Positions 1 to 10,529 of a stretch of 12,662 nucleotides of DNA are shown one piece after another. The DNA comes from Fidelibacterota bacterium. Lineage in GTDB: Bacteria; Fidelibacterota; Marinisomatia; Marinisomatales; TCS55. Location of the stretch: assembly GCA_046861385.1 (NCBI GenBank), contig JBHHTW010000047.1:1-12662 (forward strand). Direction: 5' to 3'. The position numbers and the translations under genes were made by a program. The stretch's first letter is position 1. Each line of letters begins with the position of its first letter. The notes beneath the pieces were generated by a model that saw nothing but the letters and a program-made list of their open reading frames with translations, searched no databases and was not told the origin of the DNA.

Positions 1-1
1 A

Positions 2-57
2 GTAGTGATTGGTAGCTAGTGATTGGTAACTGGTGATTGGTAACTGGTGATTGGTCA
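2..57. repeat. Tandem array of 14-bp units (CTGGTGATTGGTAA consensus, two heptamers), at least 4 copies, probably cut by the window edge
   Basis: Units: 2-15 gtagtgattggtag, 16-29 ctagtgattggtaa, 30-43 ctggtgattggtaa, 44-57 ctggtgattggtca. Degenerate heptamers continue (ttcgtaa 58-64, atggtaa 65-71). Confidence 0.95.
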
Positions 58-102
58 TTCGTAAATGGTAAGCAATAACAAGTGGCTGGTTTGTTTTCAT
101 GG

Positions 103-537
103 TTATGAATTTTTTAATTGATTTCTTTGTTTATTGAGATAAGAAATGTAGCCATTAATTTTTTTTACTAATTCATAACCAGATTCTTTGAGATGTTTAC
201 ATTGATCAGTATTATAATAATTTTCATCGATACAGATATTAAGATCATCAATAATTTCTTCTATTGAACCTCGAGCGATACGACAAAACTGGATTGACTC
301 TTTATAGTGCCAACGACCATGAGCTTCTGCAATATTGTTAGTAATAGATATAACCGCGTCTCTCATTTGGCTTGTTAATTGATATTTTTCTTTTTCAGGT
401 AATTGGTTAACGATTACGTATACTTTTTTTCTGAATTCTCTTGCATTTTGATACACTTGAAAATCATCCAGCATATATCGATCAGGCTCGCTGATAAAAT
501 CAATTTCAGATATTTCAATATCTTGATAATCAGCCAT
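103..537 (-). CDS. Four helix bundle protein (23S rRNA-IVP family, TIGR02436/PF05635-like, Avd-like fold)
   Basis: 144 aa with family motifs DFQVYQNA, LPEKEKYQLTSQMRDAVISITNNIAEAHGR and ARGSIEE. SD-like TAAGGT lies just upstream of the ATG. Confidence 0.92.
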   Translation of the reverse strand: MADYQDIEISEIDFISEPDRYMLDDFQVYQNAREFRKKVYVIVNQLPEKEKYQLTSQMRDAVISITNNIAEAHGRWHYKESIQFCRIARGSIEEIIDDLNICIDENYYNTDQCKHLKESGYELVKKINGYISYLNKQRNQLKNS

Positions 538-712
538 TTACAACCTTATCAGTTACCACTCTACCAGCTACCGCTCCACCAGCTACCACTCTACCAGCTA
601 CCGCTCTACCAGTTACCACTCCACCAGTTACCGCTCCACCAGCTACCGCTCTACCAGTCACCACTCTACCAGCTACCGCTCTACCAGTTACCACTCTACC
701 AATCACCATCAT
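530..712 (-). CDS. Putative 60-aa repeat-encoded linker peptide (G[RG][VA]V[TA] pentapeptides)
   Basis: Starts in an ATGA overlap with the EF-G stop and ends in an ATGGCTGA overlap with the four-helix-bundle start. It is the only open minus-strand frame through the array. Translation is unproven. Confidence 0.35.
   Translation of the reverse strand: MMVIGRVVTGRAVAGRVVTGRAVAGGAVTGGVVTGRAVAGRVVAGGAVAGRVVTDKVVNG
547..711. repeat. Tandem array of 11 x 15-bp units (YACCAGYTACCRCTC, 7+8 substructure)
   Basis: Units start at 547, 562, 577, 592, 607, 622, 637, 652, 667, 682 and 697. The last unit (taccaatcaccatca) is degenerate and overlaps the EF-G stop. There are no spacers. Confidence 0.97.
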
Positions 713-2787
713 TCCTCTTCTTTTTTCGAAGCAGCTACCACTTTCTTTTCCATATCTTTTGGCATTTGTTCATAATGACTGAATTCTTCTGAATGTAATG
801 CTCTACCTCCGGTTAAGGATCGTAACGTTGTAGAGTAATTGTAAAGATTTCCCTGGGGAACTTGAGCTTTGATTATTTGCATGGATCCTTCAGACTCCAT
901 TCCCATAATTTTTCCTCTGCGTCCGGAGATATCTCCCATGACGTCTCCCATATGATCTTCAGGGACTTTCACTTCAATATTAATAATTGGCTCAAGAATT
1001 CCCGGTTGTGCTTGTAAAAAAGCTTCACGAAATGCGTGTTTACCTGCGATTTGGAACGCAATATCTTTTGAGTCCACAGGGTGTTGTTTTCCATCATAAA
1101 AATTCACCTTCAAGTCTACGACGCGATATCCGGCAAGCACCCCTTCGGTGCATGCTGCATTTACACCTTTTTCAACGGATGGAACGAAAACACGATCTAC
1201 GTTCTGCCCAACGAGCGAATTGGAAAACTCCACACCTTCTCCTCTCTTTTTGGGTTCAACTCGCATCCATACTTCTGCGAATTGTCCGGCACCACCACTT
1301 TGTTTTTTATGACGGTATTTTGATTCGCCTTTTCCGAAAATAGTTTCACGATACGGAATCTTGGGTTCTTTTAGAGTTATATCAACCCCAAAACGTCTTT
1401 TCAATCTATCATGAAGTACTTGCAGATGTAATTCTCCCTGTCCAGAAATAACCGTTTGCTTTAATTCTGAATCAACTTTGTAAATGAATGTTGGGTCTTC
1501 TTCGTGAAGCGTAGAGAGTCCGACAGCTACCTTTTCCTCATCTCCTTTGGAGTGAATTTCAATGGCAGCATGAATATTGGGATTAGGATAAACAACATTT
1601 TTCAATTTAACTCTAATCCCATTTCCGCAAAGTGTATTGCCGCTATGTGTATCCTTTAATTTGACCACAGCTCCAAGATCTCCCGTTGCCAATTCACCGA
1701 TATTAGAGCGCTCTTTCCCATTCATTAGAAATAATTGACCGAATCTTTCATTTTGGTCACGGTCCGTATTGTACATGTCCTCCCCCGTACGAACACGTCC
1801 GGAATAGACTCTGAAAAATGAAAGTTCACCTACATGACCTTCAGCGATCGTTTTGTAAACAAAAAGTATGGGATCTTTGCCGGAGAGATCTATTATTTGT
1901 TCCTCATCGTTGTTGGCATTTAATGCAGAGATCTGTGCTCGATCAACAGGAGATGCTCCATATTTAGATATAAAATCCATAAGCCGAGCCACACCGATAT
2001 TGGTTGTAGATGCTGTGCAAAATAAAGGAATAAAAGTTTGATTTTGGACGGCGGCATGAATACCGTGGCGCATTTCTTCTTCTGATAGATTGCCTTGATC
2101 AAAAAACTTTTCAAGTAATGAATCGTCCGATTCAGCAACATGTTCGATTAAACTTTGATGGAGTTCATTTACTTGGGCTTGAAGATCATCCGGTAATTTC
2201 GATTCGGTGTAATTTCCTGATCCATTCAGTTCATATTCAATAAGTTCGCTGCGTAAAACATCAATTACTTTATGAAATCCCGGACCGGTAGTCACAGGCA
2301 TTTGCATTGGAAAAACATTTTGACCAAACCGTTCTTTACATTGTTTCAAGATATTATTAAAATTGACATGTTCCCGATCCAAACCGTTAACGATGATTAT
2401 TTTAGGTATTTCATTTTTGGAGGCGTGTTGCCAAATTTGTTCAGTACCAACTTCAACACCATTTACTGCGCTAATCACTACTGCGGCCATATCAACGACC
2501 GCCAAGGAGCTCAGTGCTTCTCCAATAAAATCTGCATACCCCGGAGTATCAATTATATTAAATTTTACATTATCCCATTCGGCAACTAAGGGTGTAGCGT
2601 GAATAGAAATTTGTCTGGTCTGTTCACCAGGATGATAATCGGAAACGGTGTTTCCATCTTCGATTGTACCCATACGATTAATTTGTTTGCTGTTATAGAG
2701 CATTGCTTCACTTAGACACGTTTTACCACTGGCTCCATGGCCAACCAATGCAAAGTTTCTTATATCAGCAGTTGCATATTGTTTCAT
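709..2787 (-). CDS. fusA: Elongation factor G paralogue (EF-G2 / EF-G II type)
   Basis: 692 aa. G1 GHGASGKT, G2 RQISI, G3 DTPGY, G4 NGLD; EEDPT, GQGELHL, PYRETI, KKQSGGAGQFA, HPVDS, LRSLTGGR. Not next to rpsL/rpsG/tuf. Confidence 0.96.
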   Translation of the reverse strand: MKQYATADIRNFALVGHGASGKTCLSEAMLYNSKQINRMGTIEDGNTVSDYHPGEQTRQISIHATPLVAEWDNVKFNIIDTPGYADFIGEALSSLAVVDMAAVVISAVNGVEVGTEQIWQHASKNEIPKIIIVNGLDREHVNFNNILKQCKERFGQNVFPMQMPVTTGPGFHKVIDVLRSELIEYELNGSGNYTESKLPDDLQAQVNELHQSLIEHVAESDDSLLEKFFDQGNLSEEEMRHGIHAAVQNQTFIPLFCTASTTNIGVARLMDFISKYGASPVDRAQISALNANNDEEQIIDLSGKDPILFVYKTIAEGHVGELSFFRVYSGRVRTGEDMYNTDRDQNERFGQLFLMNGKERSNIGELATGDLGAVVKLKDTHSGNTLCGNGIRVKLKNVVYPNPNIHAAIEIHSKGDEEKVAVGLSTLHEEDPTFIYKVDSELKQTVISGQGELHLQVLHDRLKRRFGVDITLKEPKIPYRETIFGKGESKYRHKKQSGGAGQFAEVWMRVEPKKRGEGVEFSNSLVGQNVDRVFVPSVEKGVNAACTEGVLAGYRVVDLKVNFYDGKQHPVDSKDIAFQIAGKHAFREAFLQAQPGILEPIINIEVKVPEDHMGDVMGDISGRRGKIMGMESEGSMQIIKAQVPQGNLYNYSTTLRSLTGGRALHSEEFSHYEQMPKDMEKKVVAASKKEEE

Positions 2788-2903: not shown

Positions 2904-3170
2904 TCAATTATATCTGACATTCACCTCATCGATATATGATCGTAAAGCAGGAACCAAATATTTACCAGATAAATCTTTGACATGGAAAGAAGTCGCCAGC
3001 ACTTTTAGGCGTTGTTCAATAGGCTTTGATCTATTAATTACGATATATTCCTGATCTTTGAACACACATGATCCACCTTCAAAACTTCCTTTTGAATGCA
3101 CCAATTTAATATTCAGTTTAACCGCCAATTCTTCAAACATAGTCAATAATATTTCAGGTTTTATGTTCAT
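2904..3170 (-). CDS. Small hypothetical protein (resembles ImmA/IrrE N-terminal fold lacking HEXXH)
   Basis: 88 aa, 4-nt overlap with the upstream gene's stop. Pattern GGSC...IVIN...RLKVLA. Confidence 0.8.
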   Translation of the reverse strand: MNIKPEILLTMFEELAVKLNIKLVHSKGSFEGGSCVFKDQEYIVINRSKPIEQRLKVLATSFHVKDLSGKYLVPALRSYIDEVNVRYN

Positions 3171-9812: not shown

Positions 9813-10529
9813 ATGAATACGACTACAGTACAAAAAATAATATCAGATGTAATGGCGGATCATGGTTTTCGTCATAAGTATCAGGTGGCGAAATATTTTG
9901 GCGTAACCCCTCAGGCAGTAAGCACTTGGCTTACCAATGGGAATATGCCATCCAAGCATATTTTAAAGTATCAATCTGAGTTAGCCAACAATAATCCTTT
10001 ACCGACCCCTGCAGCCATTTCCGGTGAAAAATCTATAAGCCAATTAAAATCTGTTATTGATTATCTCATCACGGAGAACATAACGCTCAAAAATCAAATC
10101 GCTCGTTTAAATCAAGATTTGGAAAACCTTCGGTCATCAAAGGGGAAAGGCGATCTGATCGAAAAAATAAATGCAGAAACTTTATACATTTCAGGACGCA
10201 TATCAGATGGTGTTATTACTGATATTCAAGGCAACTGGCCACAGCTCATGGGATATAATGAAAAGGATTTGATGGGACATAAATACGATCGGGAGGATTT
10301 GATTCACCCCGATGAATTTGAGCGAACTAAAAGACACCAGCGAATATTAAGGAAATCTGAAGGGATAAAAGAGACCCGATTCAGTACCATTCAGCGCTGG
10401 AAACATGGAAAAACCGGCCAATACATCATGCTCAGCATGGTTTGGTATGCGAATATCGAAAATGATCTGATAGATATTGTTGCCAAACCAATTGATTCAG
10501 TTATGGACTCTAATTATATCTCAGTTTAA
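9813..10529 (+). CDS. HTH (CI/Cro-like) - coiled coil - PAS domain putative transcriptional regulator
   Basis: QVAKYFGVTPQAVSTWLTNGNMP (HTH), LITENITLKNQIARLNQDLENL (heptad repeat), LMGYNEKDLMG...LIHPDE (PAS signature). Confidence 0.82.
   Translation: MNTTTVQKIISDVMADHGFRHKYQVAKYFGVTPQAVSTWLTNGNMPSKHILKYQSELANNNPLPTPAAISGEKSISQLKSVIDYLITENITLKNQIARLNQDLENLRSSKGKGDLIEKINAETLYISGRISDGVITDIQGNWPQLMGYNEKDLMGHKYDREDLIHPDEFERTKRHQRILRKSEGIKETRFSTIQRWKHGKTGQYIMLSMVWYANIENDLIDIVAKPIDSVMDSNYISV

What the first reader, a model, noticed from the sequence alone, without database searches (positions are those of the whole stretch)
2..711. Four-helix-bundle (Avd-like) gene bracketed by mutually inverted heptamer-based arrays: candidate self-pairing insertion cassette
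Seen: the two flanking arrays have different periods (15 and 14 bp) but are reverse complements at the core. 697-708 TACCAATCACCA pairs exactly with 31-42, 608-618 ACCAGTTACCA with 24-34, and 622-632 with 25-35. In the minus-strand mRNA the arrays could pair in many registers and loop out the ORF. The cassette begins right at the EF-G stop, and the ORF is AT-rich (hand count about 30% GC over 121-540). Known: this family was first found in excised 23S rRNA intervening sequences and shares its fold with the nucleic-acid-binding Avd of diversity-generating retroelements. Inference: an mRNA-level intervening-sequence-like unit or a transposase-less mobile cassette, whose protein may recognise its own repeats.
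Basis: partly seen in the sequence, partly recalled or inferred. Interest (0 to 1): 0.85.

Follow-up and report, generated by a model that had tools for sequence, protein, structure and literature searches.

The report
Swappable hairpin-armed four-helix gene cassette
A small gene of unknown function, wrapped in mirror-image runs of 7-8-base repeats, sits as an optional insert between two housekeeping genes of a marine bacterium, and comparison with relatives indicates that such gene-plus-repeat units are lost, swapped and passed between distant lineages although they encode no recognisable enzyme for moving.

Summary
Observation confirmed: the three pairings are exact and GC is 29.8%. Contig C99 extends the window and completes the unit: fusA2 stop, 171-nt arm, PF05635 gene, 156-nt inverted arm, hit. 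The predicted hairpin runs from the first base after the stop to 11 nt before hit.
In 107 genomes of the order this junction holds this cassette (9), an unrelated PF05635 cassette with another heptamer (13), remnants or other spacers (26), at most 40 nt (56), or is cut (3). Five genera hold both types. Across families the gene shares far more synonymous codons than its flanks (88/114 against 78/198). A paralogous cassette is 93% identical, arm to arm, at unrelated sites in two families, with empty sites in congeners. Inverted arms are family-wide and follow the gene, not the site.
Verdict: a mobile, IVS-like cassette with no transposase family match. Against the RNA-level reading: no G.U excess. 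Most other shared sites look vertically inherited. Processing and binding are untested. This scan noted the design before in 112 findings on other DNA; not found in ten literature searches.

The parts
709..2787 (-). fusA2 (EF-G-like paralog), upstream host gene; not part of the cassette
538..708 (-). 5' arm, 171 nt: G-rich tandem array of alternating 7- and 8-mers with a GGT core, period 15; begins at the first base after the fusA2 stop; ends in a TAAGG Shine-Dalgarno-like motif at 548-544
103..537 (-). four-helix-bundle gene (PF05635 / TIGR02436), 144 aa, about 30% GC, under purifying selection (dN/dS 0.12-0.19 in this genome's unsaturated pairs)
1..102 (-). 3' arm (inner part): C-rich heptamer array, reverse complement of the 5' arm core. 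It continues for 54 nt on contig C99 (3124-3071), where the outermost units are of the other (B) cassette type, then the hit gene starts (C99 3070)
530..712 (-). 60-codon open frame through the 5' arm, overlapping the fusA2 stop and the cassette gene start; probably a by-product of the 15-nt period
   Evidence: not enriched across loci, 16 of 71 against 11.7 expected

Best explanation
A mobile gene-plus-arms cassette of the same build as the ORF-bearing 23S rRNA intervening sequences, but lodged in an mRNA operon junction. SHOWN: the unit is arm-gene-inverted arm, fills the gap between a stop codon and the next start codon, and is co-oriented with the operon. It is optional, decays by internal deletion to gene-less arms, is exchanged between families at this junction, and a paralog has moved to a new junction with arm-bounded ends. 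The protein is under purifying selection and has the Xcc0516/Avd fold. INFERRED: the cassette is transcribed from the host operon and folds back so that the insert is looped out, which keeps its cost low; RNase III may cut the stem. It most likely travels as DNA. An incoming copy recombines by short homology inside the arms or remnants already at a junction, so the new gene lands innermost and the old arms stay outside; more rarely it seeds a new junction. The Avd-like oligomer probably binds the folded arms (ssDNA or RNA) and assists this with host or in-trans enzymes, since the cassette itself has no known catalytic domain.
For: Junction survey, 107 genomes: A 9, B 13, at most 40 nt 56, 41-450 nt without a full gene 26, cut 3; A and B both occur in genera g1, g4, g9, g16 and g25. 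Cross-family synonymous identity, composition-corrected: G000-G053 cassette 88/114 (60 expected) against flanks 78/198 (78 expected); G000-G040 83/108 (59) against 65/204 (72); G034-G055 type B 76/108 (52) against 58/132 (46). Control pairs with G056, G049 and G216 are near saturation in both. G040 and G055 cassette GC3 is 0.16 and 0.20 against 0.43-0.50 in their flanks. Identity does not rise into the ends of the flanking genes. G000:C78 and G053:C188 paralog: 424/457 nt, with no blastn match in the flanks; empty sites in G038, G001, G004 and G005. Foreign-type repeat units lie outermost in G000, G004, G003, G038 and G053. Of 97 non-redundant loci, 60 exceed the control 95th percentile for inverted 7-mers, and the own 3' arm is the best partner in 35. 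Unrelated proteins at one site have unrelated motifs (mean cosine 0.01, 49 pairs). Arms change in concert: own beats cross pairing in 36 of 52 loci, 12 against, 4 tied. Array counts track gene counts over 61 genomes (rho 0.75 per Mb; 0.69 over 30 genera); 0 of 23 genomes without a gene match have 5 or more array matches, against 16 of 17 with 5 or more genes. Fold: 2GSC TM 0.90, Avd 4DWL TM 0.89, normalised by target.
Against: Topology tests on 8 taxa were inconclusive (p-AU 0.48 and 0.45), so transfer rests on distances and composition. Only 16 of 99 cross-family same-site pairs show a cassette younger than its flanks (3 the reverse), and all 16 are at this junction; other shared sites look old and vertical. 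Only 4 of 86 cross-family different-site pairs show any recent signal, 1 of them strong. No clear target-site duplication: one 11-12 nt imperfect AT-rich candidate in G053, none at G000:C78, where the spacer is replaced. 37 of 97 loci do not pass the control threshold, and 1 of 5 loci from other phyla has direct, not inverted, arrays. No excised or joined form in the source DNA contigs X1 and X2 (contigs drop rare variants). No mobilising enzyme identified. This protein is net -5 (family median +3), unlike the positively charged Avd barrel. All genomes are draft assemblies that often break in these arrays; kin are not independent.
Confidence: 0.55

Rival explanations
1. RNA-centred element: RNase III excises the hairpin from the polycistronic mRNA as in the rRNA IVS, and the Avd-like protein binds the excised RNA and recruits a reverse transcriptase in trans, so the unit spreads through an RNA copy.
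For: The stem spans the intercistronic gap almost exactly, with about 109 expected arm-arm pairs; sense -248 against antisense -222 kcal/mol here. An RNase III gene is present. The Coxiella IVS has heptamer repeats, a 28-bp stem and is cut by RNase III in vitro (PMC4990558 passages). Avd binds a structured RNA. Neighbours are almost always co-oriented: upstream 63 to 1, downstream 53 to 4, against about 6 to 1 in controls.
Against: G.U 199 against A.C 241 in 84 aligned arm pairs; the sense duplex is better in only 58 of 97 loci, p 0.07. No PF00078 reverse transcriptase found in G000 (97.9% complete). The longest uninterrupted helices here are 12 bp.
Confidence: 0.2
2. Host-retained accessory gene (regulator, defence or addiction module). 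The arms form a regulatory hairpin on its own and the downstream mRNA, and movement is passive, by ordinary recombination of foreign DNA.
For: dN/dS 0.04-0.22 in unsaturated pairs, apart from one pair with no synonymous change. Long vertical residence at several sites. Invariant-like residues Q57, S64, E71 and E94. In several filled sites hit is preceded by C-rich repeats with no Shine-Dalgarno motif.
Against: Up to 24 divergent copies per genome and none found in 23 of 61 genomes. At least 4 of 10 copies in G000 are broken. Hosts are unrelated operons, and unrelated paralogs are interchangeable at one junction. Flanks about 65-70% identical give poor substrate for homologous recombination and show no co-conversion.
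Confidence: 0.2
3. Chance repeats from slippage, or an assembly artefact.
For: Assemblies break in the arrays; a 7-mer background of about 2 matches exists in controls.
Against: Score 55 against a control 99th percentile of 9; the same unit in 9 genomes of 5 families; two separately assembled f3 genomes agree; an unbroken 589-nt contig covers 26-614 in runs X1 and X2, which may be the source sample.
Confidence: 0.03

Closest known systems
ORF-bearing 23S rRNA intervening sequences (Coxiella burnetii, Leptospira; S23p / PF05635), PMC4990558
   Same: Same protein family, inverted termini forming a stem, heptamer repeats upstream of the ORF, low GC, sporadic and horizontally acquired, prone to decay.
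   Different: Lies in an mRNA operon junction between poorly conserved flanks, not in rRNA; about 10 divergent copies per genome, each with its own motif; arms of 150-170 nt; swapped between paralogs; RNase III cleavage not shown.
Avd of diversity-generating retroelements (PDB 4DWL; 10.1101/2023.10.23.563531; PMC10053308)
   Same: Same fold (TM 0.89, rmsd 1.6 A); weak profile match (NF033474 26.9 bits).
   Different: 10% identity, far below the Avd cut-off of 80 bits; no RT beside it or found in the genome; net charge negative.
Xcc0516 (2GSC) and BT_0352 (2RLD), solved family members of unknown function
   Same: Sequence (E 7e-10) and structure (rmsd 1.1-1.2 A for 2GSC). The supplement of PMC4692102 lists a GGGAATC array 6 nt after the bccP gene, overlapping the XCC0516 start.
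   Different: No mobility or flank context was drawn in the passages read.
MITEs, REP elements with RAYT transposases, insertion sequences (general knowledge)
   Same: Inverted ends, intergenic position, gene-less hairpin derivatives, spread between sites.
   Different: Ends are tandem arrays whose motif differs per clade; the cargo matches no transposase family; target duplication is not evident.
Unexplained bacterial heptamer repeats (PMC4692102 Xanthomonas and Nostoc; PMC4679880 Beggiatoaceae TAACTGA)
   Same: Intergenic 7-mer arrays near stop and start codons; inverted pairs in Xanthomonas; the TAACTG core recurs in this window's arms.
   Different: Those papers do not link the repeats to a four-helix-bundle gene (term searches).

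Membership tests
PF05635 / TIGR02436 four-helix-bundle protein | Profile match above the curated cut-off | tested here: met
   102.6 bits against 33.8; 101.3 against 24
PF05635 / TIGR02436 four-helix-bundle protein | Four long helices, 2GSC-like fold | tested here: met
   pLDDT 91.5, four helices; Foldseek top hits 2GSC and 2RLD
PF05635 / TIGR02436 four-helix-bundle protein | Homopentamer | not tested
   inferred from 2GSC and Avd; no complex job was run
rRNA intervening sequence | Located inside a 16S or 23S rRNA gene | tested here: not met
   flanked by fusA2 and hit; Rfam finds only a tRNA on C99
rRNA intervening sequence | Complementary termini forming a stem around the insert | tested here: met
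   predicted only
rRNA intervening sequence | Excised by RNase III without re-ligation | not testable with these tools
rRNA intervening sequence | Sporadic distribution and horizontal transfer | tested here: met
   tree topology test inconclusive
Diversity-generating retroelement | Reverse transcriptase beside the Avd gene | tested here: not met
   neighbours are fusA2 and hit; PF00078 not found in G000
Diversity-generating retroelement | Avd equivalog score | tested here: not met
   26.9 bits against 80
Insertion sequence | Encodes a transposase | tested here: not met
   only PF05635-type and Avd-like matches in Pfam and NCBIfam
Insertion sequence / MITE | Target-site duplication | tested here: inconclusive
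   one imperfect 11-12 nt AT-rich candidate (G053 against G038), none at G000:C78; fusA2-hit empty sites are too diverged to tell
MITE | Non-coding, fixed terminal inverted repeats shared by the copies | tested here: not met
   carries a conserved ORF; arm motifs differ by clade

The most novel reading that the evidence does not exclude
PF05635 genes with inverted short-period arms are an unrecognised class of bacterial mobile element with neither transposase nor reverse transcriptase. An Avd-like oligomer recognises its own fold-back arms and drives insertion at stop/start junctions and replacement of resident cassettes from the inside. The rRNA intervening sequences and DGR Avd would be offshoots of it, and the widespread unexplained heptamer arrays its footprints.
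Probability: 0.35. Interest if true: 0.9.

Novelty: new variant of a known kind. Interest (0 to 1): 0.72.

Why it matters
It gives a very large family of unknown function a testable role, and offers an origin for the over-represented, unexplained heptamer repeats of bacterial genomes. It also ties rRNA intervening sequences and the DGR cofactor Avd to one element. This junction is a useful natural test case: empty, A-filled, B-filled, layered and decayed states all exist, some within single genera, so boundaries, replacement and host cost can be tested with defined sequences.

Tried and rejected
RNA data: no RNA holder listed, so expression and processing were not examined.
Reads (contigs only, 4 of 23 listed runs laid): no joint removing the cassette in X1 or X2. 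Run X6 of another study holds a 473-nt contig over 36-508 with 7 differences while several fusA2 bins have no cover; a hole proves nothing, so this is not used as evidence of transfer. One X6 contig joins 55 to 600 with 19 other letters; with a 25-nt side it is probably another organism's gene-less hairpin.
Tree topology tests were inconclusive. The G.U test gave no RNA-strand signal.
Translational coupling through the arms: 16 of 71 against 11.7 expected (5') and 22 of 60 against 14.2 (3'), kin not independent; not adopted.
G-rich 5' / C-rich 3' polarity (91 and 74 of 97; controls 56% and 42%) is real but reads the same on both strands of an inverted repeat, so it says nothing about the transcribed strand.
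Promoter-like sites were at chance level (5 against 3.4) and no terminator was found. No Rfam family in the window.
Vehicle: no match in 50,697 phage records; the scan of viral contigs with the alignment did not run, so carriage by uncultured viruses is open; 22 plasmid records match.
The built-in control of the pattern search is void because that pattern reads the same backwards.
No complex prediction was run, since a pass would follow from likeness to solved pentamers.
Literature: searches gave 0 papers; searches gave none whose listing describes this cassette class. Most subscription papers are outside the library, and bioRxiv supplements were closed.

Full report
1. Observation. The arrays have periods 15 (550-701) and 14 (3-55). 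The ORF at 103-537 (minus) is a PF05635 / TIGR02436 protein, and the upstream gene is an EF-G paralog ending at 709. The window is the whole contig C96 of G000. The last 55 nt of contig C99 equal window 1-55; C99 carries 54 more nt of arm and then a gene I read as HIT family (name recalled from its sequence, not scanned). The join is supported by synteny: a hit match follows fusA2 in 104 of 107 genomes, the other 3 being cut. Folded in a script, the joined region makes one long stem from the first base after the fusA2 stop to 11 nt before the hit start, about 109 expected arm-arm pairs, in helices of up to 12 bp. Record titles of the closest relatives name Ca. Neomarinimicrobiota.

2. The same build across the family. 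G000 has 10 PF05635 matches. By eye 9 of 10 have mutually inverted flanking repeats, most with a motif of their own, and at least 4 are broken by a stop, frameshift or deletion. From 61 genomes (150 matches listed, 34 not) I fetched the tool's loci plus 60 regions, mostly the best-scoring, so the sample leans to intact genes. 125 loci covered at least 70% of the profile, 115 had full N-free flanks, and 97 remained below 90% identity. Inverted shared 7-mers had median 9, against 2 for direct orientation, mismatched arm pairs and 1419 control ORFs. 60 of 97 pass the control 95th percentile and 43 the 99th; the window's cassette, scored apart, gives 55 inverted and 0 direct. Autocorrelation peaks at lags 7 and 14. 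Among 59 loci with clear arms the motif follows the protein clade; unrelated proteins at one site have unrelated motifs. Among related loci the own arm pairs better than a relative's in 36 of 52, 12 against, 4 tied. Of 5 plasmid loci from Cyanobacteriota, Bacteroidota and Gemmatimonadota, 4 show inverted arrays and 1 direct arrays. Over 61 genomes array counts track gene counts (rho 0.75 per Mb; 0.69 over 30 genera; kin not independent).

3. This junction. I classified 107 genomes, of 161 with a fusA2 match. The gap is at most 40 nt in 56 (one, G042, has an extended fusA2 frame and is unclear), holds type A (this gene, GGT arms) in 9, type B (a distant paralog, ATGG arms) in 13, is 41-450 nt without a full gene in 26, and is cut in 3. 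A occurs in 5 families and B in 8. Genera g1, g4, g9, g16 and g25 contain both, and four of these also contain empty sites; in G224 and G270 fusA2 and hit overlap by 8 nt. Remnants with both arms and a deleted gene occur (G008, G058 type A; G030, G247, G269 type B). Arms are layered: G000 and G004 keep B units outside the A 3' arm, G038 and G053 have B units outside A on both sides, and G003 has A units outside its B 5' arm. This fits replacement from the inside (inference); a tandem A-B ancestor explains G000 and G003 but not G038 and G053.

4. Movement. At this junction the gene is much younger than its flanks in several cross-family pairs: G000-G053 88/114 identical synonymous codons (60 expected from composition) against 78/198 (78 expected); G000-G040 83/108 (59) against 65/204 (72); G053-G040 92/114 (59) against 83/205 (75). 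Pairs with G056, G049 and G216 are near saturation in both, so AT bias does not explain it. G040 and G055 carry cassettes with GC3 0.16 and 0.20 in flanks of 0.43-0.50. Identity does not rise into the flank ends. Topology tests were inconclusive. A second G000 cassette (C78) is 424/457 nt identical to one in G053 (another family), from arm to arm, between unrelated genes; congeners are empty at both sites. Against over-reading: only 16 of 99 cross-family same-site pairs show the young-cassette signal, all at fusA2-hit, and 3 show the reverse; other shared sites look vertically inherited. A target duplication is at best hinted in one case.

5. Protein. dN/dS is 0.04-0.22 in unsaturated pairs, apart from G053-G038 with no synonymous change. 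The model (pLDDT 91.5) matches 2GSC, 2RLD and, more weakly, Avd 4DWL. Q57, S64, E71 and E94 are at least 90% conserved in 79 sequences. No RT was found in G000; RNase III is present.

6. RNA or DNA. The stem's fit to the intercistronic gap, co-orientation with neighbours and the Coxiella precedent favour a role in the transcript. But G.U oppositions are not in excess (199 against 241 A.C in 84 alignments; alignments in tandem arrays depend on register), and sense beats antisense in only 58 of 97 loci. I therefore rank DNA-level exchange through the arms first (0.55), an RNA/RT route second (0.2), a host-retained gene equal second (0.2) and artefact last (0.03). The unit, its turnover and its transfer are shown by comparison; pairing in vivo, cleavage, binding and the chemistry of movement are inferred.

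7. Literature, and what I saw of it. PMC4990558: abstract and passages: heptamer repeats, 28-bp stem, RNase III cleavage in vitro, horizontal origin, protein apparently not made in vivo. PMC4692102: passages and one supplement row: inverted heptamer pairs in Xanthomonas, and an array beside XCC0516. PMC4679880: abstract, outline and term search: TAACTGA repeats, no mechanism, no mention of this family. PMC10053308: passages: PF05635 resembles Avd. 10.1101/2023.10.23.563531: passages: Avd pentamer binds RNA; its supplements were closed. Ten searches listed no paper describing the cassette class; curators' family notes and subscription papers were not searchable. This scan has 112 earlier findings of the same design in other genomes; they are leads, not support. 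A word search for transfer at a junction returned none.

8. Verdict. Real and not an artefact. The protein is a member of PF05635. The element is not a member of rRNA IVS, DGR, IS or MITE by their defining features, but is built like an IVS. New variant of a known kind; interest 0.72.

Noticed in passing
G000:C82 (minus strand) and C73:37820-38384, C72 (plus, about 151376-151751): Other single small genes also have inverted flanks: a GxxExxY-like gene with CACAGAG-type arrays, a RAYT-like transposase and a DUF559-like nuclease with REP-like flanks (names recalled from sequence, not scanned). The arm design may carry other cargo, and such enzymes are candidates for mobilisation in trans.
   Followed up: partly
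L076 (G018), L019 (G008), L075 (G040), hit start: The type A 3' arm has replaced the first codons of hit, so repeat-derived codons form its N-terminus.
   Followed up: partly
window 100-1 into C99 3124-3063: An ATG 2 nt after the cassette stop opens a 53-codon frame through the 3' arm that ends overlapping the hit start (hand reading); hit has no Shine-Dalgarno motif here. Similar bridging in 7 other type A loci, not independent.
   Followed up: partly
G000:C25:28723-28837; C48:13-97; C36:59386-59452; C72:44283-44398: Gene-less inverted array pairs and solo arrays directly after stop codons or beside tRNA-like genes; many contigs end in these arrays.
   Followed up: partly
L264 and L268 (cyanobacterial plasmids): Family members sit inside CRISPR-Cas operons (cas10-cmr3; cas6-cas4); the second has direct, not inverted, arrays.
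   Followed up: no
L073 (G053), L077 (G003): Short GC-rich palindromic inserts lie inside the arms.
   Followed up: no
L033 (G042): The fusA2 frame runs 749 codons into the hit region, suggesting a lost stop or a frameshift.
   Followed up: no
window 9813-10529 (+) and 2904-3170 (-): A 238-aa protein with only a weak PAS_3 match and an unassigned N-terminal part; an 88-aa ORF upstream of fusA2 with no Pfam or NCBIfam match.
   Followed up: no
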